From assembly GCF_004010195.1 (NCBI RefSeq), contig NC_057756.1, positions 1,495,476 through 1,559,475 of the forward strand: a DNA stretch of 64,000 nucleotides. The letters are read 5' to 3'. Below the pieces are notes generated by a model. That model worked only from the letters and a program-made list of their open reading frames with translations. It made no database searches and was not told where the DNA came from. This stretch comes from Chiloscyllium plagiosum. Taxonomy: Eukaryota. Shown here piece by piece: positions 1 through 47,930 of this stretch (positions within the stretch are counted from its first letter, which is position 1; every line of letters begins with the position of its first letter). The translations under genes and the position numbers were made by a program.

Positions 1-697
1 GTGCCAGAGTCCCGGTCACTGCAGCTTACCCCTGCTAGGCCGTTCCCCCCAACATTATCCAAAGCGGTATACTTATTGTTTAGGGGAACGACCGCAGGTG
101 ATCCCTGCACTGCCTGCTTCCTCCCCTTCCCACCTCTAACTGTTACCCAGCTACCTCTGTTCTCTGGCGTAGCTATGTCCCTGTAGCTTCTATCTATCAC
201 TCTCTCAGCCTCTCGAATAATCCTCAGTTCATCCAACTCCAGTTCCAGTTCCCTAACTCGTTCTGTGAGGAGCAGGATCTGACTGCATTTCCTGCAGAGT
301 ATCGGTGGTTACCCCTACCTCGAACATTCTGCAGGAGGAACATTCCACTGCCTGCGCTGCCATTACTTTACACCTCGTCTCTGAAAACAAGAACACTGAG
401 TAGCTTACCTGTGTACTTTAAAATTAGGTTAGAGGAGGAGGATGGGAGGGAGGCCCTACTATGTAGGGCCTGGGGTCGAGAACACACCCACTCAAATATC
501 AATCACTTACCTTCCCGACCAGCTCTGCGCTCCAACCTCACTTCCCCCCAGCTCGCGTCGCTCTCTGCTGTGAGAAGACCGTTGGCGTCGAGGTAAGTTC
601 TTTATATATCAGTCACTTACCTTCCCGACCAGCTCTGCGCTCCAACCTCACTTCCACCCAGCTCGCGCCGCTCTCTGCCGTGAGAAGACCGTTGGCA
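1..697 (-). mobile_element. CR1 LINE, 5' end (5'UTR plus start of ORF1)
   Basis: ATG at 363-361 reads MAAQAVECSSCRMFEV; after a frameshift, CRKCSQILLLTERVRELELELDELRIIREAE...SWVTVRGGKGRKQ...PLNNKYTALD. This fits a CR1 ORF1 zinc-finger/leucine-zipper N-terminus. Confidence 0.85.
503..696. repeat. Two near-identical 84-bp copies (period 110) in the CR1 5'UTR
   Basis: tcacttaccttcccgaccagctctgcgctccaacctcacttcc...gagaagaccgttggc at 503-586 and 613-696. Confidence 0.95.
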
Positions 698-782
698 TTA
701 AATTATGTATGTTGTTCAAAAAGTCAATTAATATTTAGTTTCCTCTATTTACTAAGCAGTGAATTAACATAATTTCACTCAC

Positions 783-809
783 CCTTATCTTTTTTGGCCA
801 GTTTTTGTT
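783..809 (-). CDS. Micro-exon, 27 nt: EQKLAKKDK
   Basis: gttaatttcccttAG|aacaaaaactggccaaaaaagataagg|GTgagt. Confidence 0.9.
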
Positions 810-3800
810 CTAAGGGAAATTAACAGCTTTTAAACAGAAAGCGGTGCGCCATGGATGAAACAGAATAGCATGTTTTAAACAATGTAAGCAGAAAATGTCA
901 GTTCCACACTTCATCAATATTTCATTAAATGATTGTTGAATACTGAAGAATGCATTCTTTGCAAAATGGCGAAAACAATGTGTTTTTTTTCCAGGACCTG
1001 ACAAAATACATTTCTATCATATTTCTCTTCTCTTGATTTATTCACTTTTCGGTTGCCTGCAAAATGCAGGACTCAAGTGGACACTGAATTAAATCAAAAT
1101 AATTATACTTCCATGTAGCATATGAAACACTTTGATGCACATTGATTAGAGAGAATGCTGCCTTTCTAATACTGTACATTATAAGGGGCAGCAATTCATC
1201 ATTTCAACTATGGAGTCTCAACCAGAAATTTTGGCTCAAGGCTGTACAATCTTGCATAAATCAATGAGCCAGTCTTTTGGGGAACAAATGGAGCGAACCT
1301 TTGCTTGTCCCTGAGAGAAAAAAATCAGATCTCTATTGTCTTCATTGTTTATTGCATAAGTTTCCACTTTGTTGCATAATTTCTCTCGCATGTGCAAACA
1401 TCTAGCCTGATGTTTCAAGTGTGTATCCCGAGCTCATAACTGTGATCTACTTCTAAGTATGTCCCAAAATTCCCATTGCCTGAAGAACGTGTTCTTGCAA
1501 AAAAAAAAGAATGTACCTCTTTTGTACTTTCAACTCCAATTGCGGAGTGGTTCAGAGGCTCATAAGCTGCGGCCGTGTTTATTAATACTTCACTTGTGGC
1601 AATTGATTTTGCGTATGCAGAATGCATTATGGCAACCTCTAAGTTGGAAGGTTAACAAAGACTGGTTTATTATTTTGTAGATAACGATCGTTCAGCCTAT
1701 TGGATTTTGCTGAACTTCCATCAAAATTATTTTACAGTTTGCTGCTCTACGACCTTCATGCCCAAGTGCAATGGAGGCGTGATTAATTGTAAGTTAAGTT
1801 CGATTAAACCCAAACACTGTCTGCATTGAATGCTGAACATGCTTCCAGGATCAAATGATTTGTCTGCTATTTTAAGTCATAGCACCTGCATTTATCTGTT
1901 TTTCGCATTTTGTATGTTTTTCTTTCTCTGTTTTTGGTTTCATGCTGTTTAAATTTGTATCAATTTTTCTTGCGTTTTGGTCCTTAATAAATAATGTCTG
2001 CAAGTGTTTTTGTTTTCATTTGTAAAACATTGCACAAACCGTTTTCATTTTACATCATGAAACATTCTGATACTTATTCCTTCTGTCTCTTCATTCACAA
2101 TTACATTTGAACTAAATTTATTTCCAACTTATAATTTAATTTACCATGCATTTAGGATTATTTTACTTGAATATTTCTCACGTTCAAATGAACGATCATT
2201 GTTATTTATAATGTTAACTTTGCTCCTGTCTATGTATGCTGCCTATCCCTTTTAAACCTCCTAAAATTTTCATTTAAAATGAAAGTCAGTTCATTTGTTA
2301 AATGGTCACGTTGAAAAGAAAACAAGAAACAGTGATTTGAACTTAGAAATTGATGAATTGAATTAATTATACCTACCCAGTTGAGCAATCTCAGTTTTCA
2401 GTGATTCAGTTTCTGTTAAAGAAAACAATGACTCTCATTAAGGACTGTATGTAGAAATCAGGCTGCTGTAGATCTTTAGAAGCAGGACAGAGTAAAAGTA
2501 ATTATCCATTTGTTTGCATGAATTGTAATTCAACTGTATTCGATAAATTATGCCACATACCAGTGTTCAGGTGGAGACTGCTTGATATAATTGTCATCAG
2601 CCTCAATTATATTTGAATTCCATCATTGTTTACCTCCTATTTTCACGAGTTTTCACTGAATCATATAATACCTATAGTGTGGGGACATGTTATTTAACCC
2701 AAGACGTCAATATGGAACATCCGAAGAGTAACTCACGCAGAACTACTCCTAACATACTACACCTCTTCTACCTACAAATTCCATTACTGGTAAACTATTA
2801 CAATATTTCTGAGTTTCTCAAAGATCTGGAGTCTTTCACAAACTCATTCTGATTGATTCTAACATGGAGCATTGGACTTCAGATATTCAAAAACTGAGCA
2901 CTGAGATTATGGTGTTATCCTTTTCCTCGACCCGCGCTGCTGTCTTTAATGAAAGATCATCACAATGGCCTCTCAAAAAATTGGTTGGGTGCACTAAGGC
3001 CCGTCAAATTTCACGTTGCGGTGGCAGCCAGGTTTGTATTTCAATATGCACCACGAATGTCATCATTGTACAATATTTGTTGATGTACAAAGACAAATCG
3101 CATACAGTAGAAAGTCATTCAGGATAACTGCTGATTGACAAATATATGCATATATCAGAAAAAACTAAACGACGAAATCATGGTCATTTTCGAATACACC
3201 TAACATAAGCAGAATTTGAACCATTCATAAGTGATGTCCTGAAAAGTTGATCGAAGCATATTGTCTGTCCATTGAACGTTTATACAAATGAATGATCGAT
3301 TTAACGGTTCACTGTCCATGTTTTCCATGACATATCACGTTTTCTTAATACCTGATTAGAGATTTAACCCTGACTTTTATTTTTAAAGTCGCCAAACCAA
3401 AATTAGATTTCAATTCCTTTTTTTGGAAACTGTTTGCCAACAATGAAAAGGCTTAACAAGGAGTTACTCATAATGACATATTGACTGTAGTCATTATGAT
3501 CCATCCTTAATATGCATCGTTTTTGATTTGCTGAAACAGAAAGACACTTCCCCTTATCTACGTTGAATAAAGCTGGCATTTCTACCTATTTTCCAGTTAA
3601 TCTTGAAAAATAAATAACATTTGCAGTCTTTCAGCTGCGTTCAGTTGTAAAACAAATTCTGATTGAAACAGACAGAAGTATTTTTTCCTGTTTCCTTGCT
3701 TAACCAGCTGGTTATTTGCTTAAATATATTCTTCATCGACTGTCTCATCTCCTCTGAGGTTTGCCATCCCGTCAAATTTACTTATTTGCAAGCTTACAGC

Positions 3801-6800
3801 TGAAAACTAATGTGAAGCAATTTAACATTTTTAAAAATTAACCAACTTCTGATGTATCTGAAACGTCATTCGTAAAGAAAACTCAGAACCTCCGTTATAT
3901 TTAAGAACTGCTTGCACTTTTCACAATTTGTAACCATTTCAATTGCACACTAATGCCTCATTCCTGTCGCTTACCTTTGCTTTTATTGTCCAACCGAGTC
4001 TCTGGGGAAATAGAAAATAGAAGCAAATTATGCAAAATTAACAGTTACAAGCAGGTTAAAAATCATGTCAGCAACCAAAGGTACAAACAAAACTCTATCT
4101 GAATAAAATAAAATGATATAAAGCACAATGCTCGGAAAATATCCACTCTTCCGATGTACTTTTCTCTGAACTTTCCTCAATAGACTTTTTTTTCAGATAT
4201 CCAGGAAATTCCCTGACTAAAACAACGCATTTACTGTCACCAACTATATTGTCAAATCAGATAAATATAAGTTATTTTCCACCAATGTGATGTTTTTCAC
4301 TTCCTCCATCAGAACTACTTTTACACATTTTAGTTTTGCTCTCGAATACTTTGCCTCAGTTCTCTTTACTTTACTTTTACATTCACAGACTGGTTGTGAA
4401 AATATATTCAAACTTTGAAGGGGAAGCAATAGAAGTAAACACAACTTATTTTGGAACTTCCATAAATACAATGTTAATTTTCATTATTGATGCATCATGA
4501 TTTTCTCTATAAATACCAAATTTATCAGTATGAATGCATAGTGGAACAATTGTCAGTTTAATTATAATTCACAGTGTTCGTTTTTGGGACATGTGTTTCT
4601 CTAACAATTCACCAATTTTATTACCCACGTTATTTTCATTGAGCCATAATGAGTCTTCTTTTACGAAGGTTGGTATGCCGCTATGATTTTAGACGTAGAT
4701 TTCCAATATTTTATAAGAACTATGATGGATTGGAATCAATGAAATTCATCTTGGCGGGACCTTTGATGTGATTGCTTCTCCAGTCACCGATTCAACGTCA
4801 ATGATATTTATGGAGGATATTGATGAGATGTTGCGTTTGACCCTTTCATCTTCCTCATTTCAGTCATGGTTCATCCAGTGTTGATGCCTTAAAACTTTAG
4901 CTGGGCTACGCTATAGTTATTCTTGAGTTTTCTGGGATGATTTTGCGCATTTTGGTTGCTTAAATCAGGCTGAATTCAGAGTCTGAAATAATAGCTTGTA
5001 GATTGAGTAGGAATTGGAAGCATCTTCCGATGTGTACGCCTGTTCGATTTGTTGCTGACAACACTATGCTGCTGTGTAAAAGCTGCAGAACTGCTGTAAA
5101 TATTTCTCCTCGATTATCGGAAAGCATCATAAATTGAGATTCGTGCTTAACTGATTCTCACAAAAGTGAACATTTCTAGTTAGCAGAAAGTCCATGGATA
5201 TTGTTTTTCCCAGTAATTTGTGACGGTGTTTAGCTGCCGGATTAAGTACAAAATGACTTACCAAGATTATCAAAAGCGTTTTTCGTTTTTTCCAACGCTG
5301 TATGCAAAATATAACTCAAATAAGGATGAGTTTGGCAATGTGATTTGCAGGCGCACTCAGAATTAATCTAACCCCGTTGATTTTTTTTATGTTATTGCAT
5401 TGTTTACTTATTCAGGAAAATGATTCTCGATGTCTCAAATGACATCGAATATCTACTCAAAACGTTATTTCGTGTGTTAACAGCGAAACACATTTGAATC
5501 AACGTAGTCCACGTGTCATAATTGAAGTGGGTTGCACAACAATCAAGATCCAACGTGTTTACGTTGTTTTAATTTCACATGGAAACTGTGTAGCCCTTCT
5601 TGAATTACCCTTCAAAAACCAAACACTAGACAGTAGACATTTCGTTCAATAAACTGATGGATTCAATGATATCGATTGTCAAAAAAAAAACATGCGTGGC
5701 TTAACCCATGCATGGAGTTCGAATTTGCAGACCATCAGAAAAAAAATGAGATAGTAACACACAACAGAGAGAAAGCAACAGTAATATTATTGACATCATA
5801 GTTGAGGAAGAATGGTAATGATTTTCAACAGCATTCGGTCTATTTGCATGCGAGCATTAGTGACGTGGATGACTTCTCAAATTGGACAACACGTGGCAAA
5901 ATGCAACTTGAGCAATTGCATAAAATGTTACTGATGATCAACTAATGAATATCAATCATTTGTGCTTCTCATTTCCTGTCATTTCAAAATATAGATAATA
6001 AAAACATTACTTTGCACACAATGGCAGTTAGTCTGTTACATGTTTCATACTCTTGCCGAATATATGCTCCTTAAAGTATCTGCATTTCAAGGGTAAAGCC
6101 GAAATCCACTCTGTTTGCAACGTCTTGAATGTGTAGAGTAGGTTGAACATATATCATCAGAACGAACATAAGAAAAGTTAAATCCCTACTACTATTTCTT
6201 ATATTTGTGTGCATCTAAACTGACAACCATTGCAAACAGAGTAATCCATTTTTGCTTTGTTAGCTCTGATCTCACAAAACCCCAAAATCTAATAAAGTCC
6301 ATTATCGTGACATTTTTGCAGTAATAAAAAAGACGATGTCATTTTTCCTCCATCGTTTCCATAGCATACGTTATAGTAAGTGTGTGAAATTTAGGCACAA
6401 TCATATTATAATTCTGAAGCAGCACATCGTATCAGCTTAACTATTTCTATTCTCTGACGACTGCTGAGTAATGATTAGACAATAGAAACCGGCGAGAAAT
6501 CTTAAACTGGATCTGCTGAAGATAGAGGGAGAAAAATATTTCAAAAAAGTAAAGAAAATCTTGCGAATTTATGGCCAATCAGCACATCCTTCAATGAGAA
6601 AGTTGAGGCTAACAATCTTTTCATAGTGAGGCAAAACATGAAATCATGTTTGGTTTCTTACCTTTTAATTTGTCATTTACGTCGTTTTCTAAGTGCAACA
6701 TATATATAAAACATAGAACATATCTTTAGAGGTGCACCATCGTCTCCATATCACAAAATACAGTCTTTCTCACAATAATAGTTTCTGCATGTTTCATTTA

Positions 6801-9800
6801 ATGAAGAGTAACAGAAAGATATTCACTACGACGATCTTATAGATATATGGGAGTGCTTTATGTTTCAAACATATGAAACATTTTCATTATTTATACATTC
6901 ATCTCAATGTTGTAAAGTAATAATGTTAATAATCTGAAATGTGTGCGCAGCTAGCAAGGCAAGGAGTTCTTGCTCATTCATAATTGACTTGAATTGGCAA
7001 ATACTTGAAATGCTGACAATTATCTGGAAACGGATATTTACAGTTTTATTTGAATCAGAGATGTGCAATTTTGCTTCAGATCTATGGAAAGAAACAGACA
7101 TAACAGAAGCTACGGACTTTAAGTGCGTTGTGGAGGATTACTGTCGTTTGACATTTTGGCTTTTTTCTGTGAGACTTATCGCATTCTAGGATTTTTTGAT
7201 GGAGCCTTGGTCAGTTCGTGTACAAAAAGGGCCTTCACATTGTGATAACCGACGGAAAAATCTTACGCGTGTTAAACAAAGACACATGTTTGAAATTCTT
7301 CTCTGATGATACAAACATTAACAGAATAACAAATAAGGTTATTCAGAGAAACGAGAAACCTATAGTTCATTTGAAGGCATGTATTAAAAAAAAGCGATTT
7401 AACTTGGTTGCAAAGATCATCATGATTTGGCATTCAGAATTTCTTTAATCCTCCGTAGGATTACATGAAATGTTGTTGACCGAAATTTGACATTGACAGC
7501 AGTGAGGGATTCAAGATGTAACAATTATCTGCTTGCTTTTTTGAAAAACAATCTGGAGAAGAATATTTGATTGTTGGATATTTCATAGTATTGCAATAAA
7601 CAATGAGACATCCAAAGTAACTTTTTGATGCAAACAAATTCCATTGTTCTTTTGGCAATAATTTCTAAACTAATAGAAATGACATATCTCACGGGGACAG
7701 AAACAATGAAAAGAACGACCGAATTGATTACCAGCGTTCAAAATAGAAAGACAGGGGCAACTGAATACTTCGTACTCACGGCAGTCCTGGAGTTCAGTTC
7801 TAGATCTTGCCAATTCTGGAATGTGGCAACAATGAGAAATAAGAATGATTATTTTAATTTGACAGAAAACATTTACTGCATAGCTGAAAGTTATCCATTC
7901 AAGTCAATGGCAGCAACAAAATCAATAAAAGCTGCAAAACCACATGGCGTTATTCCCCAAAACAATAATACTGTAAAATCTTCCTTTGAGAAATTATTAA
8001 ATTTAAAATAGGCACGTTGAACAATTGGCAATGACATTGCCAATGATCTATCACTTTGTCACGGAAAAATGAGAATCGATTCAAGGAAAATTAATACATG
8101 TAGAATACTTACAAGAAAAACATAGACGTTAAAAAGTAGTTAGTCAGGGCGATATAACATTTGTAATATTCTAGAAAGCATTGAGTACTACTGAGATAAG
8201 GCAGAGAAATGACAGTGATGATTGGACCGTTAAGTTTTAATTATGGCTTCAGATGTGGTCAACACTGGCATACATGAGTCTAAAATTTCGAAGATAAAAG
8301 AGAAAAATGGTTCCAAGCTACTTTTAGTTCAGAAGAAATATAATTGGACCTGAAACGTTAATTCAACGTTTTTTCCACAGACGCTGCCTGGTCTTTCTCC
8401 CGAATGTTTTTTTCTTTTTCGGTTTTCCAGCATTCGTACTACTTTTAATATTTTAGTTGGAGCTGGGAGTGAGTGATGAAAATTTCCAAGCCCTTGAGCT
8501 TCTCGAACATGTTTTAGAATCGTGATTTTAGTATGAATAAAAGTGTGGGCTCCAACAAGGTTAGCCAGACCTCAGTGATTGGTAAGAGTATACTAATCAT
8601 AGAACTGTGATACAGGGAGCCATTCAAAAGGGTGTGGAAAAGACAACAAATGTTTCTGTAATCGGGGACTGTACAACTAGGGAAAAGGTGATCTCTCGTT
8701 GTCAGGATGGAAAGTACAAAACGCTGCCTGGTGGCCTGGATCAGCAAATATTTTTTGGGTTGAAGAGAAACTTGGATTGAAAGGGGAAGGATTGAGTTGT
8801 CGGAGCCCACATGGGCAAAAGCAAAAAAGGGAGGAAAAGAAAACATGTTCTTCTCAAGGAATATGAGCAGCTAAGGGCTAAATTATAAAACATAACCAAA
8901 AGGAGAATATTCTCTGGATTGCTACCTTATTCACGAACCATGTGGAATCGAGTTTACAAGACTAAAAATGTAAACTGGAGTGCTATGATGAAGATTAGTT
9001 GGAAGACAGAGAATTGAGAATTCTTTAACACAAAGCAGCAAAGGACAAAAAGTCAATAAAGTGTAGAAGATGTAATATGTGAGTAAGTTAGCAAATAATA
9101 CAGAAGAATATGCAGGAGATTTTTTTATATATTTAATAGTAAGAAAGAGGCAAGAGTAGACGTTGCACCACTGAAAATGTCAATTAGCGAAAGTAGCAAT
9201 GCAGGTCAAAAAGTCACGGTTGAACACAAAGGGTACCTTCTATTCGTTTTCATTAAGGAAGCAGTAAACCAGAGCGTTAAGAAATTCAAGGGCAGAGATG
9301 AGTCAAGCGACCATCGCTGAGGACAAGGTACTGTGGTATTTGTAAGTTATGAAGGTTCTGATGCAGGTATCTGAGGAAATCCTCGATGCTTTGGCGGTGA
9401 TCCTTCAGGAATACGTGGAGTCAGGATTGTAGCAGAAGTCCGAAAAATAGCTATTGTAATAATCTCTGCTTTCGGACGGGAGGGAGGCAGAATACCTGAA
9501 ACAAGATGTTGATTAGACAGACCGCAGTGATAGGTAAGATTTTAGACGTTATTATTAGGAATAAGATTGCAGAGTACCTGAAAGTGCTTGTTAAATTAGA
9601 GCTCAGACAGCATGGCTTTGTTACCGAGAGGCCATGCCTGACAAATCAGTTAGACTTGTTTGAGGAGGTAGCATGCTACATAGACAACGGACGGCTGATA
9701 GACAGGATCTTCTTTGATTTCCAAAAGGCCTTTTGCAAGGTCAAGAAGACAGGAGGACAACACAGTGCACAGAATACTGCTAATGTGTTAACGATAAAAT

Positions 9801-33800: not shown

Positions 33801-36800
33801 GCTATAAAAATTTTGGTGATGATAGATAAATGAATCTGGTGTAAGGATAATGTTTGATCAAAAGAGTCATTAGTATTGAAAACAGAATGTTCAATACATG
33901 TGTACAGCAGCACAATACAGGGATCCCCCACTATACAAAAGTAGAGCATTTCTATTAATCCTTTCTTAAGCTGAAATGGCATAAAGCGAAGAAGCATTCA
34001 TTCAATTTGAAAAAAAAATCGCCTGTTTTCATCGAAGTCAAAATCCTGTTTGGACTTCTTTTAGTTAGAAAAACAGGTACTAATGTAAGTCTTTTTTGCA
34101 AAAGCTAAGTGGTGTAAAGTGAACTTCGGAAAGTGGGGCACTCCTATACTTTGAATAACTTTCCTCTGAGAATCGACATGTTTGGAACTGCGACAGGATC
34201 TGAAATATTGTGATGTTTCTGCCTCTACCAGATATCTTTTAAAAAATTGTCTTTTTCAATGTCATCAATCACATGTTCACTAAGCATTGTTGTGTCTTTC
34301 TTTACCCATTTGGAAATCTGTGTTGCCTTATACAGTTGATACATTTTTATTTATTCACAGATATCTCCACCCTATATCAGCTCTTCAGTTCGGCATTTCA
34401 TCATTTTCCAATACTTATAATATTAACAATTGCTTTTTTGGTGCTTTCTTACCAGTATCTTTGAGACTCTGGCGCAGATTTTCAAGACCTGAAAGGAACC
34501 AAAGGATTTTAAATTCAGCTAACTGCACATTTATTTAATTTATGACAACAGTTTCATATTTGTAAACAAATATATGTAATGAGAGGTTCAACTATAATGC
34601 AAAATTGCAAATCTTCCCCAACAATTCAGTGTGGAAGAAAACGTTTGGCATGTTTATCAGGGCCAGCACCGCCTTTTCTACCTTCATATTCATGTCTGAT
34701 ATTAATTTTGCATTACTTGGCGTGATATCCGCAGTTTTAACATGTTAAGACGGGAAATGTAGCAACACCATCAAATTATTTTAAAATCAATCGTCTGCTC
34801 CTGACAGACGATCAGTTATTTTTGAGCTTAAGGGTTACTGAAGCTATCTAGCATTGGTCACAATGAAGAGTAATTATGATAATTGATTAAAAGCTACTCT
34901 TTGAGAATGTTTTTTTTGGGATGGGAAATAATTTAGAGCACAAAACTTTACTAGTCTGTAACAGGATTTACACCCTACGTTTGTGATGTGTATATATGTG
35001 TTTGACAAACAATGTCCGATTGACAATCAGAGACAACTTTCCATACAAGTAATAGACATTTATATGAAGTGTACATTCTTGTTATTAGAACCAAGAACAC
35101 AGCACATACAACAGTACAGTGCAGAAACATCCCCCTCTGCCTATCATGCCCGTTTTGAACATAATGCCATTCGAAATTAATCTGTTCTTCCTGCACATGA
35201 TCTGTCTCCTTGTATTTCTTGAGGTACAGGCCTCTGTAGAGGTGCCTCTTAAAATTTACTGACTGATCTGCTTTTGTCACTCCCCCTATTAAAATATTCC
35301 AGCTACCTACCACTCTCTTTATGACACAAAAAACTTCTTTTAACACATTAGCTTTAAACCGTTCCTTCTCATGTTGAACTGATACCATCTAATATTTGGC
35401 ATTTAAACTCGGGAAGAAAGAGATGTAACGGATATATTATCCTAAAGATTCATTGAATATTTTTATATAATTCTATCCGTTCACCACTTCGCCTTAGAAT
35501 CTCCATCTCCTCTGCACATGTCTAATTTGCTTCAACCCAAGCAAAATCCACACAAATCACTTTTGCGCCTTCTCCAAAGACTCTCCATCCCGCCTATAAT
35601 GCGGGTCACAGATTGAAGACAACATTCTGAAACTGGCTGGACTAAAACATTTTGCAGTTGCAACATGACTTAACAAATTTTATACTCAATGCTGCAACGG
35701 ATGAAGGCAAGCGTATAACATTATTCATTTCTTTTGCCCCTTCCTAAGAGCTATTAATTGATCCCGAGCTCTCTGTCTAAATCACTGCAGTGAAAATGCC
35801 TGTCATTGCCTATGTGCTTTCCTTTTGCACTTGACCTCCAGAAAGGCATCACATTACATTTGTCCAGATTAAACTCTGTCCATCATTCCAACTGTTCTGT
35901 ACTTCCATACATTTCTACAGTGTTCAGAACTCCATTGTTTTTTCAAGACATTTGAATGCTTGCTAATCAAACGATCTACATGTTAATCTAATAAAATTTA
36001 ATACCATGCTTTATTTTTTTTTCATTTTTAGTTAATGAATTGATGTTGGATTGATTTGGCAATTAGTCATTCAGAGTACAATGTCAGATTTCCAAAATAG
36101 CAACGCTGATTTATATTTTGGTAACAATTAGATGTGATATAAAAAGAAATCCAGTATAATTGTTGTATCCAAATGAATAATTTTTCTAAACGCATGTCAT
36201 CCTTTATGATTATTCTGACTGACCTCGCAGTTCAGAAGTCACGTAAGCTACTTGTCTTTCTTATAATGGTAATCGAGACAAAAACAAGTAAGGTAGCTTC
36301 AAGTATTAAGTCATTTTGACTTCGTTGTGTTCAGCTTATGTTGGGAAGGAGAAAATAGATCAGAGTAGGAAAAATAAATAATAGATGCCCCACTGTTTTC
36401 ATGTATTAAGAAGTTAATTCGCTCGTTAGCTTTGGAATTCTGGAACATTAAGCTTCCGTTCTTAACACTTTAACTGATTTCCACGAAAATTAGAAGTGTA
36501 AAATTCTTCAGTAACAATATTTACATTAAAGCTTTCCAGTGATTTTATCTAGTAAATGAAACATATTAAAACTAAACTCAGTTTCCAAAAGAAACATTCG
36601 TTCATATTGCAAGGTGATACATGTTATTTAGAATGTAACATGAAATTTCAATGATTGCCTTCCAATACAGCTCGTAGTTCTGTAAAAAGTTGCTCCAGAC
36701 AAATGATCATTAAATTCGACATATTCTGGGAAAGATTACGAACAAAAACAACTTTGGAAATGTTAATCTACTTCAACACTAGATTACATTATTGGTACTC

Positions 36801-36842
36801 TTTTGTGACGTTGCAATGCAAGTTTATTCGATGGTGTGTGTG

Positions 36843-36904
<62 letters not shown>

Positions 36905-39900
36905 CAAACACACACACACATATGCATGGTATTTGTGATACTGAGCAAGCTAACGATAACTTTGTTTTGTCCCATGCAAACGTGCATCGCATTTATTATC
37001 CTGATATGGAAGTCTCTCATTTTATTACTTATGCAGTTTTTTTTCAGAAATTCCCTTTTTATACCTGAAATTAAGAAAGATGATACATTGATGATGACAC
37101 AGAATAAACAAAGGACCTCAGATATGTTTTCATTGCAAGTTGAAAGTTATATTACAATCCCTATAGTGAAGTGTAATTCTAGTAAACACATAATTCCTTT
37201 ACCTTTATCTTTCATCTGCAGCCTTTCTTCTATTTAAATGAACAATAGTATGTATTAGATCTGATTTGAACACATTCTTTAATCTAATAGCAGAAACACA
37301 TATGCACAAACCAACTGAAATAGAAAAAAAACTATCGTTCAATTACTGAACTGAAAACAATAAACTAATTTCATAAGAAATGTTAATCACTTTGCACTCT
37401 TACTATGTTGTAATAATCAGAAGTACAATTCGAATTGTTCATCAAGCATGATGCAGATCAACACCACCGTAAGTGCAATGTTTTTAGACTTTTTTGATTA
37501 GTTAGAGCACATGAATTCATTAATCTGCCTGTCTCAGTTTAAAAGATCATCCGTGCGTGATATTCGCTTTCTGATAGAAGTTGGATTACATCTTCTACCT
37601 TGCTTTTGGATATAACATACGTTGTTTTGGTTCAAAAGCTCATATGGCAATTAATTATGCAACAGGAAATCGTACAATTTTGTAATGTGACAAGAAGCTT
37701 ATCACTCCAGGCTTGGTGATGTCAAAACCGTGTATCTTGACCAAGTTGCATTAATATGCTAAATGATAAATAGATTAATTGCCTACAATATTTTGAAGAA
37801 AACTAATGCGCAGTCAGCAAATTAGAAGGCTTAAGGTGGTGAAGGAAACTGTAATGCTGGCAGTTAATGCTGAGCAACCAGAAATCATTGCACACGTTGG
37901 CACAAATGACACAGGTAGGAATAGGAATGAGATCCTGCAGAGTGACTACGGAGAGCTAGTAAAAAGAAAAGTTAAGAACCATGACCTCGTTAGTGAGAAT
38001 CTTTGGACTACCTCCAGTGCCACGAGATAGTGATGATAAGAAAAGAGGGTATAGCAAAAAAATGCGTGTCTAAAGAAATCGTGCACGCAGCCGGGATTCA
38101 CATTTCTAGAATATCAGGATACTTTCTGGGGTAGGGGTGACATGTTCAAGAGGGATGGGTTGCACCTGAACTGGAATATCTTGGGGACCAAATTTGTTCA
38201 TGCTGCAAGCGTAGGTTTAAACGAGACCGTCGTGCGGGCGTGGTGTTGTGTGGGATCATCACAACATAGAACATAGAACACAGAGCATAACAGCGCAGTA
38301 CAGCCCCATTGTCCCTCGATGTTGCAGCAACCTGTGGAACCAAACTGAAACCCATCTTTCTGACACTCTTCCATTGTTGTCAATATGCAAGAGAATTAAT
38401 ATTGTTGGCGAGTCTACTACTGTTGCAGGCAGTGTGTTCTACGCCCCGACTAATCTCTGAGTAAAGAAACTACTTCTAACATCTGTCCTACATCTATCAC
38501 CCCTCAATTGAAAGCTATGTCCCCTCATGCTAGCCATCGCATCCGAGGTAAAAGGCTCTCTTTTTCCAAACTATCTAACCCTCTGATTATCTTATACATC
38601 TCAAATAATTCGCCTATCAACCTTTTTCTCCCAAACTAAAATAGCGTCGTGTCCCTCAGCTTTTCATTCTAAGACCTTCTCTACATACTAGGCAATATGC
38701 AAGTAAACACACCATACAGCTTCGTAATAGCCCTTTCAACTTGTCTGGCAACTTCCACAGATCTATGTACCTGTACACCGAGATCTCCCTGCTAATCTAT
38801 GCTACAAAGAATATTGTTATTAGCCCAATAATCTTCATTCCTGTTATTCCTTCCAAAGTGAATCACCTCACACTTTTCCACATTAAACTCAATTTTCCAC
38901 CTCTCAGCCCAGCTCTGCACCTTGGGACAAGTAACCATAGTTCTATAAATATTAAAATACTTCCAGAGAGCGACAAAACTAAATTAGAGTAAAACGAATT
39001 TTAATAAAATTAGACAGGATCTCGTTCAGGTTGATTGGACTAGTTTGCTTGCAGTTAGAGACACATCTGACAAGTGGGAGTCCTTTAAAAGTAAGGTAGC
39101 CAGAGATCAATGTCTATGTGTTCCCGTGAGGGTGAAGTGTAAGTTTGGAAAGAACAGTGAAGCCTATTGAATCTTTTAACAGAAGAAGAAAGAAGGAGAC
39201 GTGGCTCATGTACAGGCAGCTGAGATCAAAGAAATATCTGGAGGTACATAGGAATTTTAGGATTTATTGAAGAAGAAAATCAGGAGGTCGAAAAGGCGGA
39301 ATTAAATAGGCATGACTCAGATGAATCCAAAGAGGTATGTAATGTATATCAAAGGAAAAATTAAAGAATAACTAGGGAGAGGACCATCAATGATCAATAT
39401 GGACATGTACGAATAGAACCGTAGGAGGTGGGAGAGGTTCTCAATGAATATTTCTGCTCTGTGTTTAGCATGTAGAAATACTTAGACATTTGGGGAATTA
39501 GTCATGATATCTTGTGCACAGACCATATACAGTCGAGGAGGTGTTGGATGTCAAATGAAGGAGGACAAATCTGCTGGTCCTGACCAGATATATCCAAAAA
39601 CACTGCCAGAGGCTAGAGAAGAAATTGCAAGGGCCTTGGCTGATATTTTTGCATCATCATTAGCCACGAGTGAGATCCGAGAAAGCTGTCGGGTAACCAG
39701 TGTTGTGCAATTATTGAAGAAGGGCTGCAGTGAAAAGTCTGGGAACGATAGACCAATAACCTCAACAACTGTGGTTTGGAAGTTATTTGAGAAGATACTG
39801 AGCGATAAGATGGACATGCATTTGAAAATAAAAAATGGTTTGTTTAGGACTAGTTAGCAGGTTTTGTGAGTGACACATCATAGAACAGAGAACGTAGAAC

Positions 39901-42900: not shown

Positions 42901-45608
42901 CCCACCGATCTGCTCCAACCTCTTCTGCGACCTATCACTTCTTCCCCACCTCCATCCATCTATTACACTCTCAGCTATCTTCTCCATAACTGCACCCACT
43001 TCCACTTATCTCTACACCCACGAAGCACCTAGACTCATTCCTGATGAAGGTCTTTTGCCCGAAACGTCGATTGTTCCTGCTCCTTGGAAGCTGTCTGACC
43101 TTCCATGCTTTTACAGCACCACTCCAATCTTGACTTTTATCCTGAGCATTACAGACCAGTCAGTCTCAAGTCTGTGTTGGGTAAAAATGATGGAGAGAAT
43201 TCTGAGACAGGATTTGTGATTACTTGGAACAACATGGTTTGATTACAGACAGTCAGCATGACTTTCTGAGCGGCAGAAATGTTATTGAACACTTTGACGA
43301 TGCGACAAAACATATTGTTAAATTTAGAGCAGTGGATATGCTGCACATGACTTTTCTTTGTCATTGCATTTGGTCAAGTTTCCCATGGTATGATCATTCA
43401 GAAAGTAAGAAGGTATGGGACACGTAAAAATCTGGCAGTCTGAATAAAGAATTGGCTGGCCCACAGAAGACAGAGGTTGGTGGTACATGGGAAGTATTCA
43501 GCTTGAAGCTTGGTGACCTATGGTGTTCCACAGAAATTGGTTCTGGGACCTCTGTTGTTTGTGATCTTTATAAAAAACTTGGATGAGGAAGTGCAATGGT
43601 GGGTTAGCAAGATTGCCAATGACACGAAGGCTGGTGGAATTGTGGATAGTGTGAAGGGCTGTTGTAAATTGCATCGGAACTTTGGACAGGATGCACAACT
43701 GGGCTGATAATTGACAGATGGAGTTCACCTGAAAAAAATGTGAACTGATTCACTTTGGAATTTCGAATTTCAAAATGCAGGGTTAATGACAGGATTGTTG
43801 GCAGTGTGGAGGAAAAGAGGGATCTTGTAGTCCATCTCCATAGATCCTTCAGAGATACCACTCAAGCTGCTAGGGCCTTTAAGGAGATGTAATGTCTGTT
43901 AGCTTTCATTAGTAGTGGGATTGAGTTTAAGTGCCATGAAGCTATGCCACAGTTCCATAGAGTCCTTGTTACACCACATTTAGAACATTATGTTCAGTTC
44001 TGGTCTCCTCATTATAGAAATGAAGTGGAAGTTTTAGAGACGATGTAGAGGAGATTTACCGGAATGTTGCTTGGACTGGAGGGTAAGGTTGTAAGAGTTA
44101 GGTATTTTCCCATTGGAGAGAAGAAGGATGAGAGTTGGCTTGGTAGCGGTCTGAAAGGTGGAGAAAAGCATCCTTAGATTGACGTTTTCCCAGGGCGGAA
44201 ATGTCAATCACATGGTGCCAATCCTTTTAGGTGATTGGAGGAAGCTTCAGCCGAGGTATCAGATGTAGGCTCTTTAGACAGCGAGTGGTGGCTGCGTTCA
44301 GCAGTCGCAGTAGAGTACTTTAGGGACATCTAAGCGACTCCTGGATAGGCACATCGAAGATAGTACAATGAAAGGTATGCAGGTTAATCCCATTTTGGAG
44401 TAAGATAAAAGGTCAGCACAACGTCGAGGGCCTAATGGATGGTACAGTGGTACACTGTTCTACCTTCTACGTTCTAAGTGGAAGAAATGGGCGTTGTATG
44501 GCAATTTGAAGGTGTTAAATTCAAGGTTTAGTCCAGAAGGATGTAAAATGCCGAGTTTGAAGATGAGATGTTGTTCGTCCATTTGACTCAAGAAACTAAA
44601 ATTGATACACCATTTGTCCTCCAACACCTTACATCCAATAATTCCACCACCGCCACCCCCAACTTAGACCATAAATCTTGTCCTCTCCACACTTCACTTC
44701 ATCTTTGAAGAAGAGTCATGTTCTTTCTACATGGATGCCACCTGACTCTCTGTCAATTGCAGCATTGTTGCTTTCAATATAGCAACTTAGACGAAGCATA
44801 ATTGAAATCACTTGTTTAAAAGTTCATGACTAATATCATGTTCATAGTTTGGTGATATTGGTCAAAATTCCACGCCTTGATTATAATATTATAAACGAAA
44901 AACATTGTGCAAACTCTCGATAATAGAGTGCAAAGTTTATTCGCTGACAAAGAAAAGCCGACAAAAAAATACTTCTCACATGTCATTTATGAGTATGAAA
45001 CATTAGTGAAATCCATGGCACATAATAGGACCTGACTAAATAAAGGATCTGTACAGCGTGTTTTCACGTTATCATAGAATCTGTACAGCGTGGAACCAGA
45101 TCATTCTATCTATAATGTCCATAGCGATATCCAAATGCATCCCACCCGGACCCAGCCAAACCCCATAATCCTGCATTTCTCATGGCTAATGTACCCAACC
45201 TACACATTCCAGGATAATACGGGCCAATTTAGCATGGCCAATCAAATGAATCTGCACATCTTTGGACTGTGGGAGATAACCTGAGCACGCAGAAAAAACC
45301 CACGTGCACATGGGGAGCATATGCAACACTGTCAATATATATGAAAATGAAAACAAAAAAACAACATTCCAAGCGAAATAACAAAGTAAATAAGCAATAT
45401 TTAATTGGAAGATGAACGTAAATAACCCATTTTCTTTAAAAGGTAAAACTGACTTTCTGTAGCAGTTCAAAATTACACCTATTCAAATCACGTTTCGACA
45501 ATTAACAACTGGTTCCATGCCCAAGTCTGCTTAAATCTTCTCACTTCTGCATCAGTTTCCTTTTCGCCTTACCCAGTTCGCTGATCAATTTTTTAAGATT
45601 TTCGACTT
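783..45608 (-). CDS. Partial multi-exon gene: at least 18 alternating 36/27-nt micro-exons encoding a 21-residue-periodic coiled coil (5' and 3' ends not seen)
   Basis: All 18 exons have a pyrimidine-rich AG acceptor and a GT donor, lengths of 27 or 36 nt, and phase 1-1. They join into one stop-free 558-nt frame with heptad hydrophobic spacing. Gene identity unknown. Confidence 0.9.
2377..2412 (-). CDS. Micro-exon, 36 nt: ETESLKTEIAQL
   Basis: cattgttttctttaacAG|aaactgaatcactgaaaactgagattgctcaactgg|GTaggt. Confidence 0.92.
3975..4001 (-). CDS. Micro-exon, 27 nt: ETRLDNKSK
   Basis: ttctattttctatttccccAG|agactcggttggacaataaaagcaaag|GTaagc. Confidence 0.92.
5262..5297 (-). CDS. Micro-exon, 36 nt: ALEKTKNAFDNL
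   Basis: ttatattttgcatacAG|cgttggaaaaaacgaaaaacgcttttgataatcttg|GTaagt. Confidence 0.88.
6662..6688 (-). CDS. Micro-exon, 27 nt: QNDVNDKLK
   Basis: tatatgttgcacttAG|aaaacgacgtaaatgacaaattaaaag|GTaaga. Confidence 0.86.
7780..7815 (-). CDS. Micro-exon, 36 nt: ELARSRTELQDC
   Basis: ttgttgccacattccAG|aattggcaagatctagaactgaactccaggactgcc|GTgagt. Confidence 0.88.
8600..10650 (+). mobile_element. Degenerate CR1 LINE (ORF1 remnant plus ORF2 reverse transcriptase)
   Basis: ORF 9506-9823 has RQHGFVTERPCLTNQLDLFEEV...IFFDFQKAFCKV, matching the CR1 RT motif QHGF...CLTNL...DFQKAFDKV; many stops around it. Confidence 0.85.
10150..10324. mobile_element. Short palindromic Penelope-derived insertion inside the CR1
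   Basis: Inverted arms agagtcgacagtgtattgctgggaaagcacagcaagt / acctgctatacttttccagcaacacactctcgactct, similar to the Penelope 3' ends at 20405-20530 and 43060-43130. Flanked by an apparent direct repeat, tttt(c/t)gaaacgg. Confidence 0.65.
11026..11052 (-). CDS. Micro-exon, 27 nt: DEKIRRNDQ
   Basis: gtttttctttgttaacAG|atgaaaaaattcgtcggaatgaccaag|GTaaac. Confidence 0.9.
11690..11725 (-). CDS. Micro-exon, 36 nt: EIAALQKKLQDL
   Basis: tcttcttgtttccccttggttgcAG|aaattgcagctctgcagaaaaagcttcaagatttag|GTgaga. Confidence 0.92.
   Translation of the reverse strand, partial: KLQLCRKSFKI
13000..13560 (+). repeat. Unclassified probable interspersed repeat inserted at the CR1 ORF1/ORF2 junction
   Basis: GC-richer block interrupting CR1 homology and ending in ...gatggcgcc...tgttacaataag...aataaa; family not assignable by eye. 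Confidence 0.35.
15781..16100 (+). mobile_element. tRNA-derived SINE (HE1-like)
   Basis: Head ggcggcatggtggctcagagg (A-box-like), gacccgggcgtgattcc (degenerate B box), core gtaggtggattaactgtgctgatttgcc, CR1-like tail gggccaaatagtc...ggatctatgaatctatga. Confidence 0.8.
16290..16515 (+). mobile_element. 5'-truncated HE1-like SINE
   Basis: gatgtacaggttaggtggattagccatgctaaattgtccattgtgttcag...gggccgtaaggcacgcttccacattgtag. Confidence 0.75.
17246..17272 (-). CDS. Micro-exon, 27 nt: DEAMREKNG
   Basis: ccaactttttcgttAG|atgaagcaatgcgtgaaaagaatggag|GTacaa. Confidence 0.83.
18895..19080 (+). mobile_element. Degenerate HE1-like SINE fragment
   Basis: Similar to the 3' half of the SINEs at 15781 and 16290, ending ttgtttccacactggagggattcta. 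Confidence 0.5.
20405..20850 (-). mobile_element. Penelope-like element 3' fragment
   Basis: ORF 20259-20822 begins VEECLTFHLAILQPHGINAYFTSFHISL, homologous to LEEERLIFRLGTRQPQGINVDFNSFQISP in ORF 61376-61996. Confidence 0.8.
22660..22695 (-). CDS. Micro-exon, 36 nt: EIESIRKKIEQL
   Basis: catctttcttttttgcaAG|aaattgaaagtatcagaaaaaagattgaacaattgg|GTaagc. Confidence 0.9.
23698..23724 (-). CDS. Micro-exon, 27 nt: KESLDGKDS
   Basis: tggatttcttacAG|aagaaagtttggatggaaaagactcag|GTaaaa. Confidence 0.87.
24060..24780 (-). mobile_element. Degenerate CR1 3' fragment
   Basis: gaccaaaatgtcacacaatattccagatc is the reverse of the LEYCVxFW motif; WN motif region near 24250. Confidence 0.6.
25595..25621 (-). 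CDS. Micro-exon, 27 nt, occupying a 36-nt slot: EIEGVRQKC
   Basis: cattttcctatttcAG|aaattgaaggcgttcgacagaaatgca|GTaagt; peptide aligns with the first nine residues of the 36-nt class (cf. EIESIRKKI). Confidence 0.82.
26019..26093. repeat. Imperfect (CA)n/(GACA)n microsatellite
   Basis: cacacatacacag...cacacacgacacacacgcagagacacagatagacagacagacagacacac. Confidence 0.8.
26453..26479 (-). CDS. Micro-exon, 27 nt: EEQLKLKTQ
   Basis: gtatttctttcatcacAG|aggaacaattgaagctgaaaacccaag|GTaaag. Confidence 0.9.
28216..28251 (-). CDS. Micro-exon, 36 nt: ELEPLKMDLSSK
   Basis: cattttttcatatatcAG|agctagaacctttgaagatggatctatctagtaaag|GTacct (weaker donor). Confidence 0.8.
29870..31150 (+). mobile_element. 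Very degenerate CR1 ORF2 remnants
   Basis: gaattcttaaaatgtgtccagcagggacttttagccag (FLKCVQ-like) and tgactggaaaccaatctccagt (DWKP.SS-like), both CR1 ORF2 landmarks. Confidence 0.5.
31239..31265 (-). CDS. Micro-exon, 27 nt: EEELSQKKK
   Basis: ccatttgtttaacAG|aggaagaactgagtcaaaaaaagaaag|GTaaat. Confidence 0.88.
32541..33365 (-). mobile_element. Relatively young, 5'-truncated CR1 LINE (RT C-terminus plus 3'UTR)
   Basis: ORF 32627-33340: QRDLGVLVH...LYRALVRQHLEYCVQFWSP...RRLRGDLIETYKI...TRGHSLK...FTQRV-like...WNALP, open for about 210 codons, followed by the CR1 3'UTR. Confidence 0.95.
34453..34488 (-). CDS. Micro-exon, 36 nt: GLENLRQSLKDT
   Basis: cctttggttcctttcAG|gtcttgaaaatctgcgccagagtctcaaagatactg|GTaaga. 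Confidence 0.9.
35095..35980 (-). mobile_element. Degenerate CR1 3' fragment
   Basis: ORF 34975-35388 contains KRVVGSWNILIGGV...NFKRHL (WN.LP...FK..LD motif); CR1 tail near 35100. Confidence 0.65.
36835..36921. repeat. (TG)n-(TA)n-(CA)n microsatellite
   Basis: tgtgtgtgtatatata...tatataatcaaacacacacacaca; roughly 60 bp of near-perfect TA. Confidence 0.95.
37203..37229 (-). CDS. Micro-exon, 27 nt: EERLQMKDK
   Basis: ttgttcatttaaatAG|aagaaaggctgcagatgaaagataaag|GTaaag. Confidence 0.85.
38263..38920 (-). mobile_element. Nested antisense CR1 3' fragment
   Basis: Starts with the reverse-complement tail acatagaacatagaacacagagcataacagcgcagtacagcc; RT C-terminal remnants follow. Confidence 0.75.
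39879..40700 (-). mobile_element. Nested antisense CR1 3' fragment
   Basis: Tail catagaacagagaacgtagaacagtacagc; ORF 40233-40601 has ALVRTHLEYCVQFWSPH; host CR1 RT resumes at ~40700. Confidence 0.85.
42555..43140 (+). mobile_element. Penelope-like element 3' end (GIY-YIG C-terminus plus terminal repeat)
   Basis: ctctactttggagagaccgga...cttcagagaacatctctgggacacc...gaacatttcaactcccc, homologous to 61250-61700. Confidence 0.85.
43036..43072 (+). ncRNA. Minimal type-I hammerhead ribozyme motif (Penelope-associated)
   Basis: attc-CTGATGA-aggtcttttgccc-GAAA-c-GTC-gatt: conserved cores, stem II with one mismatch, palindromic ACGT stem III, GUC cleavage triplet. Confidence 0.65.
43150..44478 (+). 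mobile_element. Degenerate CR1 RT 3' portion
   Basis: LITDSQHDFLSGR; GVPQKLVLGPLLFVIFIKNLD...SKIANDTK (FADDTK-like); tail ttctaccttctacgttcta. Confidence 0.9.
45071..45332 (-). mobile_element. HE1-like SINE
   Basis: atcatagaatctgtacagcgtggaa...caatttagcatggccaatcaaatgaatctgcacatctttggactgtgggag...cccacgtgcacatggggag, reverse complement of the SINE core seen at 16290. Confidence 0.8.
45573..45608 (-). CDS. Micro-exon, 36 nt: (E)VENLKKLISEL
   Basis: Minus strand ttttttgctttattctcAG|aagtcgaaaatcttaaaaaattgatcagcgaactgg|GTaagg. Confidence 0.88.
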
Positions 45609-45851
45609 CTGAGAATAAAGCAAAAAACAGGATTTACACGATGAGTAAATAGTAGGTGCAAGAAAAAGAAAATGATGTCACTTTATTTAAAAGTCATTAT
45701 TTGCAATCTTAGTCGTTATAAATATAAAAACACTGGAGCATCAATCATATTTACTATACAATACCGTCAATCGGATGACTAATTTAGTGACTGTGACGGA
45801 CAACAAGCAGCTATTAAAACTGATGTTATTTTTTGTCACTTGATCCTTAAC

Positions 45852-45881
45852 CTTGTTTTTCCCGCTGTTTCAAGCACACAT
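45852..45881 (-). CDS. Candidate upstream micro-exon, 30 nt: (x)VCLKQREKQ
   Basis: ataatatttAG|atgtgtgcttgaaacagcgggaaaaacaag|GTtaag. Phase 1-1 with L at position 4 and R at position 7 like the 27-nt class, but 3 nt longer and with weaker splice sites. Confidence 0.45.
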
Positions 45882-45904
45882 CTAAATATTATAGTTTCAG
45901 AGCA

Positions 45905-47699: not shown

Positions 47700-47930
47700 G
47701 ATCCAACATTTCCTCATCATATTGGACTTTCCGTCTTCATGGCACAGTAGAGTCAAGAAGCATCAGCACAAGAATAAGTTTCTGCCTATTGGGACTGTGG
47801 GTCAACCCACAGCAGGTGGACTGCAGCAGTTCAAAAAGGTAGCTCACCACCACCTTCTGAATGAAACTAGGGACAGGCAATAAATGTTGGTCAAACAGTG
47901 ACACATATATCTCACAAATGAACAAAATAA
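47700..47930 (+). mobile_element. LINE 3'-end fragment (clade uncertain); a related antisense copy lies near 32020-32500
   Basis: ggactgcagcagttcaaaaaggtagctcaccaccaccttct...ctagggacaggcaataaatgttgg; its reverse resembles gaaggtggtagtgaactatcttcatgaaac at ~32061. Confidence 0.5.

What the first reader, a model, noticed from the sequence alone, without database searches (positions are those of the whole stretch)
783..45608. Conserved 21-residue code with a recurring lysine at a core heptad position
Seen: 36-nt exons are mostly hydrophobic at positions 2, 5, 9 and 12 (e.g. EIAALQKKLQDL, EIESIRKKIEQL, EVENLKKLISEL). The nine 27-nt-class exons all have a hydrophobic residue at position 4 (L,L,L,L,M,I,V,L,L) and K at position 7 in eight of nine (N in one). 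The spacing 2-5-9-12-16-19-23 is a 3-4 heptad pattern that runs across exon junctions, with Lys at every third d position (LxxKxxEIxxL). Nucleotide identity between exons is low and I saw no obvious similarity between introns. Inference: an old tandem duplication of a two-exon cassette kept by protein-level selection. The periodic polar core residue may set oligomer state or register.
Basis: partly seen in the sequence, partly recalled or inferred. Interest (0 to 1): 0.7.

Follow-up and report, generated by a model that had tools for sequence, protein, structure and literature searches.

The report
Lysine-punctuated coiled coil from shark microexons
Twenty tiny segments scattered over 45 kb carry exon-type splice signals and would together encode a 200-residue helical rod with a lysine in nearly every third 'd' position of its core, likely a periodic weak layer in a long two-chain spacer; this is a modest twist on a known gene design, and splicing, fold and function are untested.

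Summary
Observation confirmed, slightly overstated. Twenty minus-strand phase-1 segments (45608..783; mostly alternating 36 and 27 nt) read as 200 residues without a stop; the other two phases give 11 and 23 stops. On splice signals alone, 27- and 36-nt candidates are enriched (12 and 8 against a mean of 2.3). Hydrophobic period is 3.52; a positions are hydrophobic in 26 of 29, d in 14 of 28. Lys sits at position 7 in 8 of 9 typical 27-nt exons (p 3e-4), but in 7 of 11 candidates taken without curation (p 0.024). The 21-residue beat breaks twice (18, 35). Introns keep no trace of duplication; synonymous sites are near saturation. Best reading: the middle of a long, parallel, likely two-stranded coiled-coil spacer, with Lys snorkelling out of a weak core layer. 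Trimer, partner-code and splicing-enhancer readings remain open. No RNA, orthologue or fold test was possible. Earlier scan notes report many such giant microexon rod genes nearby in this genome, one ending in B30.2 about 153 kb downstream (unverified); none mentions the lysine code. Polar core residues are common in coiled coils, so interest is moderate.

The parts
45573..45608 (-). Exon 1, 36 nt, phase 1-1; 12 residues, register g-a-b-c-d-e-f-g-a-b-c-d
   Evidence: splice scores 8.7/3.7
37203..37229 (-). Exon 2, 27 nt; Leu at a, Lys at d
34453..34488 (-). Exon 3, 36 nt
31239..31265 (-). Exon 4, 27 nt; Leu at a, Lys at d
28216..28251 (-). Exon 5, 36 nt; holds the only Pro and an extra Lys at d
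   Evidence: donor weak (1.6)
26453..26479 (-). Exon 6, 27 nt; Leu at a, Lys at d
25595..25621 (-). Exon 7, 27 nt but of the 36-nt type, three codons short; gives a 3-4-4 stutter; Cys at a
   Evidence: 58% nt identity to exon 9, at most 38% to any 27-class exon
23698..23724 (-). Exon 8, 27 nt; Leu at a, Lys at d
22660..22695 (-). Exon 9, 36 nt (AAG acceptor)
20205..20219 (-). Exon 10, 15 nt, atypical; with exon 11 adds two heptads in register; Lys at a
   Evidence: strong donor 7.4; less certain
18803..18829 (-). Exon 11, 27 nt, atypical (Leu at d, Asn at a, Glu at d)
   Evidence: weak donor 1.9; least certain member
17246..17272 (-). Exon 12, 27 nt; Met at a, Lys at d
   Evidence: found by profile scan; donor score -0.1
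11690..11725 (-). Exon 13, 36 nt
11026..11052 (-). Exon 14, 27 nt; Ile at a, Asn at d (the one exception)
7780..7815 (-). Exon 15, 36 nt; Cys at d
   Evidence: found by profile scan; donor score 0.0
6662..6688 (-). Exon 16, 27 nt; Val at a, Lys at d
5262..5297 (-). Exon 17, 36 nt
3975..4001 (-). Exon 18, 27 nt; Leu at a, Lys at d
2377..2412 (-). Exon 19, 36 nt
783..809 (-). Exon 20, 27 nt; Leu at a, Lys at d; the gene would continue beyond the window's left end

Best explanation
Twenty stop-free, in-phase 15-36-nt segments with splice signals are likely exons from the middle of a much longer gene and would encode about 200 residues of a heptad rod, predicted to be a parallel two-stranded coiled coil in which a Lys at every third d position likely forms a periodic weak, register-keeping core layer. 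Shown in the sequence: splice signals, length enrichment, one open phase, the a/d pattern, the Lys column, charge complementarity at g-e'. Inferred: splicing and translation; that exon symmetry (all lengths divisible by 3, all phase 1) let a 36+27-nt unit multiply long ago and lets exons be gained, lost or skipped in whole three-heptad steps; that five hydrophobic layers (a-d-a-d-a) hold two chains together while the sixth is filled by the Lys chain with its amine turned out towards acidic neighbours (Asp at e in 4 of 9, Glu at the next g in 6 of 8); that this lowers stability per unit, penalises out-of-register sliding by one or two heptads and disfavours larger bundles. The rod (about 30 nm for this stretch at a recalled 1.48 A per residue) would act as an intracellular spacer; a C-terminal B30.2 domain is taken from an earlier unverified note only.
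For: Splice-signal-only scan: 12 candidates of 27 nt and 8 of 36 nt on the minus strand against a mean of 2.3 for the other 44 lengths, and 0 and 2 on the plus strand (Poisson p 6e-6 and 0.003). 0 stops in phase 1, 11 and 23 in the others. Strongest hydrophobic period 3.52. a hydrophobic 26 of 29; d 14 of 28; b, c, e, f, g 1 to 3 of 28-29 each. Register kept across the exon 10-11 insertion (14 residues) and broken only by one 3-4-4 stutter. g-e'(i+5) pairs: 13 attractive, 2 repulsive of 28, shuffle p 0.0016, as expected for in-register parallel self-pairing. Ile 7 at a against 1 at d, Leu 11 of 14 hydrophobic d, a dimer-type bias (recalled rule). No R-h-x-x-h-E trimer motif (0; motif recalled). 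Long polar side chains can reach solvent from dimer cores but often not from trimer or tetramer cores (PMC13580157 abstract). AA under the Lys is not a general donor-distance signal: 9 of 9 in the 27-class, 1 of 8 in the 36-class (p 4e-4). One aromatic residue, two Cys, one sequon in 200 residues, net charge -4.
Against: No RNA support: no joint listed in three RNA or possible-RNA runs, which did not cover the exons (no test). No orthologue, fold or complex prediction was obtained. The a/d imbalance (about 10% polar at a, 50% at d) resembles trimeric autotransporter stalks (5% and 45%) and is the reverse of bZIP dimers (35% and 5%) (PMC13580157 Introduction); Lys is not among the common d residues of bZIP dimers (PMC4335062 passages). 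The uncurated Lys signal is modest (p 0.024) and cannot be told from an AA dinucleotide (p 0.15). Third codon positions are also more alike than composition predicts (0.41 vs 0.28; 0.39 vs 0.29), and exons are GAA-rich (7.3 vs 2.1 per 100 nt), so splicing enhancers or shared ancestry explain part of the pattern. Many g residues are junction codons, which weakens the salt-bridge test. Four exons have weak donors (5, 11, 12, 15). Neither end of the gene is in the window.
Confidence: 0.5

Rival explanations
1. Real coiled coil, but three-stranded: polar residues concentrate at d as in trimeric autotransporter stalks, and three Lys either snorkel out or surround an anion.
For: Polar fraction about 10% at a and 50% at d matches the 5%/45% of trimeric autotransporter stalks (PMC13580157); the one substitute for Lys is Asn, the classic trimer d residue; Leu-rich a (14 of 29).
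Against: The polar d residues named for those trimers are Asn, His, Gln, Asp, not Lys; long charged chains are hard to solvate in trimers; no R-h-x-x-h-E motif.
Confidence: 0.15
2. Partner code: Lys against Lys destabilises the homodimer so that the chain pairs with a paralogue carrying acidic residues at the matching layer, as KKK against ETE does in BTN3A1/3A3.
For: BTN3A juxtamembrane precedent by mutation and modelling (PMC10665462 passages); earlier notes list several paralogous microexon rod genes within a few Mb (unverified).
Against: Self g-e' pairs are complementary, 13 attractive to 2 repulsive of 28; acidic residues flank the Lys in the same chain; no paralogue sequence was available to test.
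Confidence: 0.1
3. The rod is real but the Lys column is not a structural signal: it is an ancestral residue of the founding exon, kept by A-rich splicing-enhancer needs of microexons and tolerated like any polar core residue.
For: AA invariant in 9 of 9, AAA in 7; exons 45% A and GAA-rich; invariant third-position A at nt 8 of the 36-class; about a quarter of a and d residues in coiled coils are polar anyway.
Against: AAA use is no higher than at other Lys codons (p 0.26); the 36-class lacks AA at the same distance from the donor (1 of 8) and has it in 4 of 8 at the same distance from the acceptor; synonymous sites are near saturation, so ancestry alone should have decayed.
Confidence: 0.14
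4. Antiparallel dimer as in TRIM coiled coils, or a segmented helix in which the second half of each 27-nt exon is a hinge rather than a core layer.
For: Position 20 holds D, N or S in 6 of 9; B30.2 proteins with long coils include TRIMs, whose coils are antiparallel (recalled).
Against: Mean helix cost at positions 17-21 (0.30-0.56, recalled scale) is no worse than at 4 and 11 (0.74, 0.55); heptad phase continues exactly across the Lys layer; g-e' pattern fits parallel pairing.
Confidence: 0.07
5. Not a working gene: chance splice-like sites or a recently dead gene.
For: No RNA junction seen (no test); no database protein found.
Against: Length enrichment on one strand, one open phase, heptad pattern in uncurated candidates (p 2e-5 and 2e-4), GT-AG intact at 20 of 20.
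Confidence: 0.04

Closest known systems
Chicken BG genes (butyrophilin family); PMC4046983 and PMC5938342, passages read
   Same: Long run of tiny exons with a split first codon that encodes heptads presumed to form a coiled coil; true heptads span exon junctions; exon number varies (13-36).
   Different: BG exons are 21 (sometimes 18 or 24) nt, one heptad each; here two exon types of 36 and 27 nt make a three-heptad unit with a Lys layer, spread over introns of 0.6-8.3 kb. No IgV or transmembrane exon was found in the window.
Butyrophilin BTN3A juxtamembrane coiled coil; PMC10665462 passages, PMC7348870 passages
   Same: Lys residues at a coiled-coil interface ahead of a B30.2 domain steer pairing.
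   Different: BTN3A has about 40 residues and one charged patch; here at least 200 residues with a periodic single Lys. Homology not shown.
Trimeric autotransporter adhesin stalks with polar d layers (N@d); PMC13580157 abstract, Introduction and passages
   Same: Repetitive rod with polar residues concentrated at d and nearly none at a.
   Different: Bacterial, trimeric, small polar residues binding ions; here Lys once per three heptads in an animal microexon gene. Analogy only.
CD23 (FCER2) stalk (recalled, no call)
   Same: 21-residue three-heptad repeats, each encoded by a symmetric exon.
   Different: One 63-nt exon per repeat and only 3-4 repeats, extracellular, ending in a C-type lectin; here each repeat is split over two exons and there are at least nine.
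Giant microexon coiled-coil (plus B30.2) genes of this same genome (earlier scan notes)
   Same: 27- and 36-nt phase-1 exons, long rod, same chromosome piece within about 0.15-2.9 Mb.
   Different: AI notes, unverified here; none of the listed lines mentions a Lys layer. Whether this window is part of the gene ending in B30.2 about 153 kb downstream could not be checked.

Membership tests
Canonical heptad coiled coil | 3-4 hydrophobic repeat at a and d with charged e and g | tested here: met
   a 26 of 29, d 14 of 28 hydrophobic; period 3.52; e and g 1 of 29 each
Canonical heptad coiled coil | Knobs-into-holes structure and defined oligomer state | not testable with these tools
   The spliced product could not be given to the folding tools and no homologue was retrieved
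Chicken BG / butyrophilin | Heptads encoded by small symmetric split-codon exons | tested here: met
   20 of 20 exons phase 1-1, lengths divisible by 3
Chicken BG / butyrophilin | 21-nt one-heptad exon unit (BG) | tested here: not met
   Lengths are 36 (8), 27 (11) and 15 (1); one 21-nt candidate by splice signals, background level
Chicken BG / butyrophilin | N-terminal IgV domain and transmembrane helix | tested here: inconclusive
   None of 34 relaxed exon candidates in 45700-64000 reaches a 19-residue hydropathy above 1.5; the 5' end lies outside the window
B30.2 (PRY-SPRY) proteins | C-terminal B30.2 exon in the same gene | not testable with these tools
TRIM | RING and B-box before the coil; antiparallel coil | tested here: inconclusive
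   No such exon in the window; best match among 120 B30.2 proteins is 16 bits, below an unrelated repeat protein at 21 bits, and none of the 120 has two Lys-layer motifs 21 apart
Type II C-type lectin stalk (CD23-like) | Transmembrane exon upstream, lectin domain downstream, 63-nt repeat exons | tested here: inconclusive
   No 63-nt candidate on either strand; ends outside the window

The most novel reading that the evidence does not exclude
Cartilaginous fishes carry a family of giant genes that build coiled-coil rods from interchangeable two-exon, three-heptad cassettes, in which a Lys at every third d layer is a selected registration code: it fixes chain alignment and partner choice among many paralogues, while exon skipping in whole cassettes tunes the length of the spacer that holds a B30.2 recognition domain.
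Probability: 0.15. Interest if true: 0.75.

Novelty: new variant of a known kind. Interest (0 to 1): 0.42.

Why it matters
It marks 20 likely exons that ordinary ORF calling cannot see and that no database protein searched here covers at near identity. If the Lys layer proves to be selected, the gene is a natural, many-times replicated experiment on what a charged d residue does to coiled-coil oligomer state and register, and on how exon symmetry shapes protein repeats. If it is only an inherited A-rich splicing signal, the finding is one more window of a microexon rod gene family that this scan has already noted repeatedly, with an ordinary heptad pattern.

Tried and rejected
Whole-genome look-up: none held. 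RNA: no RNA holder listed; laying X5, X6, X7 and DNA run X1 on 600-20500 gave 33 reads from about 2% of X5, 0 from X6, repeat-type pieces from X7 and no RNA joint: no test. Homologue searches with exon-level profiles: 0 of 5792 candidates (local check showed this profile scores only 10 bits on the window's own product, so it was blind); 0 of 1946 (sensitive only to about 90% identity or more and 71-2000 residues); 7 hits among 1.84 billion representatives, all unrelated repeat proteins. Atlas search of a 43-residue read-through: no usable hit. A B30.2 query from two non-shark vertebrate loci returned 120 of 4154 proteins; the three from cartilaginous fish are TRIM-type or fused models and none matches the product. 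Look-ups of earlier findings near the window, for relatives, by sequence and for the lysine wording gave nothing. Rejected exon candidates: 59560-59534 (reads like part of a retroelement RT, by eye), 36259-36224 (weak signals, breaks the alternation, 33229-33200 lies in a LINE-like ORF), 54916-54890 (no GT), 674-621 and 567-511 (in a repeat pair). Cassette co-duplication signal: not detected. Pfam on 10 intronic ORFs: only RVT_1 on 62925-63998. PMC9523718 passages held nothing on Lys at d. No structure or complex job was sent, because only 12-residue pieces of the product are contiguous in the window.

Full report
1. Observation. Scans on splice signals and then on a residue profile (which added 17272-17246 and 7815-7780) gave 20 segments from 45608 to 783: eight of 36 nt, eleven of 27 nt, one of 15 nt, 600 nt over 44,826 bases. 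All have AG and GT, all lengths divide by three, and read in phase 1 they give 200 residues with no stop, against 11 and 23 stops in the other phases. A control without any reading-frame filter counted 12 candidates of 27 nt and 8 of 36 nt on the minus strand, against a mean of 2.3 over the other 44 lengths from 15 to 60, and 0 and 2 on the plus strand (Poisson p 6e-6 and 0.003). The splice weights were my own simple, recalled ones. Four donors are weak (exons 5, 11, 12, 15).

2. The 21-residue pattern. In the eight 36-nt exons 27 of 32 residues at positions 2, 5, 9, 12 are hydrophobic. In the nine typical 27-nt exons position 4 is hydrophobic in 9 of 9 and position 7 is Lys in 8 of 9 (any-column shuffle p 3.4e-4). 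The spacing 3-4-3-4-3-4 fixes position 19 as d. Over the chain, a is hydrophobic in 26 of 29, d in 14 of 28 (9 Lys), the other positions in 1 to 3 of 28-29; the strongest hydrophobic period is 3.52. Because the nine-exon class was defined by its look, I repeated the test on every stop-free candidate from the signal-only scan, dropping none: Lys 7 of 11 (p 0.024), hydrophobic position 4 in 9 of 11 (p 2e-4), heptad fit of eight 36-nt candidates p 2e-5. So the heptad is strong and the Lys column real but modest. Exon 7 is a 36-type exon three codons short (58% identical to exon 9), giving a 3-4-4 stutter and an 18-residue module. Exons 10 and 11 add exactly two heptads with a polar core, giving 35 residues; with both or neither the register holds. 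The Glu of the quoted motif is a junction codon largely set by splice context.

3. History. None of 14 self-BLAST hits is anchored on exons, and 400-nt flanks of same-class pairs score no better than different-class pairs. Between paralogous exons pS (0.63, 0.67) is near the codon-shuffled level (0.71, 0.74) and pN (0.52, 0.50) well below it (0.70, 0.64); pN/pS is 0.33 at the two core columns of the 27-class, 0.87 at the rest, and 0.71 against 0.91 in the 36-class. Position 4 uses CTG, TTG, ATG, ATT and GTA, the mark of selection for a hydrophobic residue. This supports old duplication with protein-level constraint. Against a purely protein reading: third positions are more alike than composition predicts, exons are 45% A with 7.3 GAA per 100 nt against 2.1 in introns, and the Lys column is AA in 9 of 9 including the Asn codon; 8 Lys to 1 Asn has p 0.15 if only AA were fixed. 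For it: the 36-class lacks AA at that distance from the donor (1 of 8, p 4e-4), and AAA is no commoner here than at other Lys codons (p 0.26). No co-duplication signal of 36- and 27-nt partners was found (Mantel p 0.27, 7 modules).

4. What gene. Neither end is in the window. Upstream, 18.4 kb hold no convincing exon and no transmembrane-like candidate among 34 relaxed ones; much is retroelement (RVT_1 on 62925-63998, 1 of 10 ORFs scanned). No PRY-start pattern is present. No genome was held. RNA gave no test. Protein searches with single-exon profiles found no relative, and local checks showed they see only near-identical proteins. A detour through a vertebrate B30.2 query returned 120 of 4154 proteins, none matching. 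Earlier scan notes describe many genes of 21-, 27- and 36-nt exons within a few Mb in this genome, call the animal a bamboo shark, and place a B30.2 exon at the end of an array of about 66 exons some 153 kb downstream of this window, on the side to which this gene reads. I could check none of this; it is a lead that raised my odds for a B30.2 end over a lectin end.

5. How it likely works. About a quarter of a and d residues in coiled coils are polar, so a polar core residue is not surprising in itself; bZIP dimers put them at a (35% against 5% at d), trimeric autotransporter stalks at d (45% against 5%) (PMC13580157, Introduction read). This rod has the autotransporter-type imbalance but with Lys, and the same paper's abstract notes that long polar chains reach solvent from dimer cores and often cannot from trimers. 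In-register parallel self-pairing is favoured by g-e' charges (13 attractive, 2 repulsive of 28; p 0.0016, weakened by junction codons and by module relatedness). Ile prefers a (7 to 1) and Leu dominates hydrophobic d, a dimer-type bias by recalled rules; the recalled trimer motif is absent. I therefore commit, at about 0.5, to a parallel dimer with five hydrophobic layers and one Lys layer per module, the Lys reaching acidic neighbours (Asp at e in 4 of 9, Glu at the following g in 6 of 8), giving a long, moderately stable spacer that resists slipping by one or two heptads. All of this paragraph beyond the counts is inference. Rivals: trimer (0.15), splicing or ancestral relic (0.14), heterodimer code as in BTN3A, where swapping ETE for KKK abolished cooperation (PMC10665462, passages; 0.10), antiparallel or hinged rod (0.07), no working gene (0.04).

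6. Comparison. It is built like the chicken BG tail, where 13-36 exons of 21 nt encode heptads that span junctions (PMC4046983 and PMC5938342, passages), but it fails the 21-nt unit and shows no Ig or transmembrane exon in view, so it is not filed as BG or butyrophilin. The CD23 stalk (recalled) has the same 21-residue unit on single 63-nt exons. Other papers: PMC4335062 passages (Lys common at a, not at d, in bZIPs), PMC7348870 passages, PMC9523718 passages (not useful). No supplements were read. Five searches for such a gene in sharks listed 6, 0, 0, 0 and 5 papers, none describing it by title or abstract start; three searches on polar core residues listed none on a periodic Lys at d. The library lacks most subscription papers, so this is limited evidence.

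7. Verdict. A real and fairly striking sequence pattern in a likely unannotated microexon gene; a new variant of a known design. The gene family has been noted repeatedly by this scan, the heptad is ordinary, and the special role of the Lys rests on nine related modules with no orthologue, RNA or structure. Interest 0.42.

Noticed in passing
window 496-586 and 606-696: A 91-bp tandem pair, 96% identical, 87 bases past exon 20, each copy with a strong donor-like site; it draws RNA reads and high-depth contigs, so it is a repeat, probably the 5' end of a LINE-like element whose ORF (3-308, minus) runs off the window.
   Followed up: partly
window 48141-54194: A direct-repeat pair (48141-48581 and 53733-54194, 66% identical) brackets about 5 kb of decayed coding-like sequence: probably an old LTR retroelement in the long intron upstream of exon 1. 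No Pfam hit on two of its ORFs.
   Followed up: partly
window 59400-64000: Retroelement on the plus strand with a 358-residue open RT frame (RVT_1), Penelope-like by eye; shorter related pieces at 42576-43093 and 20450-20839.
   Followed up: partly
36-nt exons, nt 6-8: Codon 3 is G-(A/C)-A in 8 of 8, with an invariant third-position A: a candidate splicing enhancer near the acceptor.
   Followed up: no
window 600-20500: DNA run X1 differs from the window at about 186 listed places (near 1%); none of the 40 rows shown falls in the six exons of 783-7815, where under one would be expected, so this says nothing.
   Followed up: partly
exon 7 (25621-25595) and exon 15 (7815-7780): The only two Cys fall at core positions (a and d) at exon ends, and these are the only two exons not ending in G; they could cross-link a parallel dimer.
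   Followed up: no
L001 504-1178 and L002 714-1259: Two contigs of a public metagenome set carry vertebrate B30.2 exons (L001 is 97% identical to a bird TRIM protein): host DNA in the collection.
   Followed up: partly
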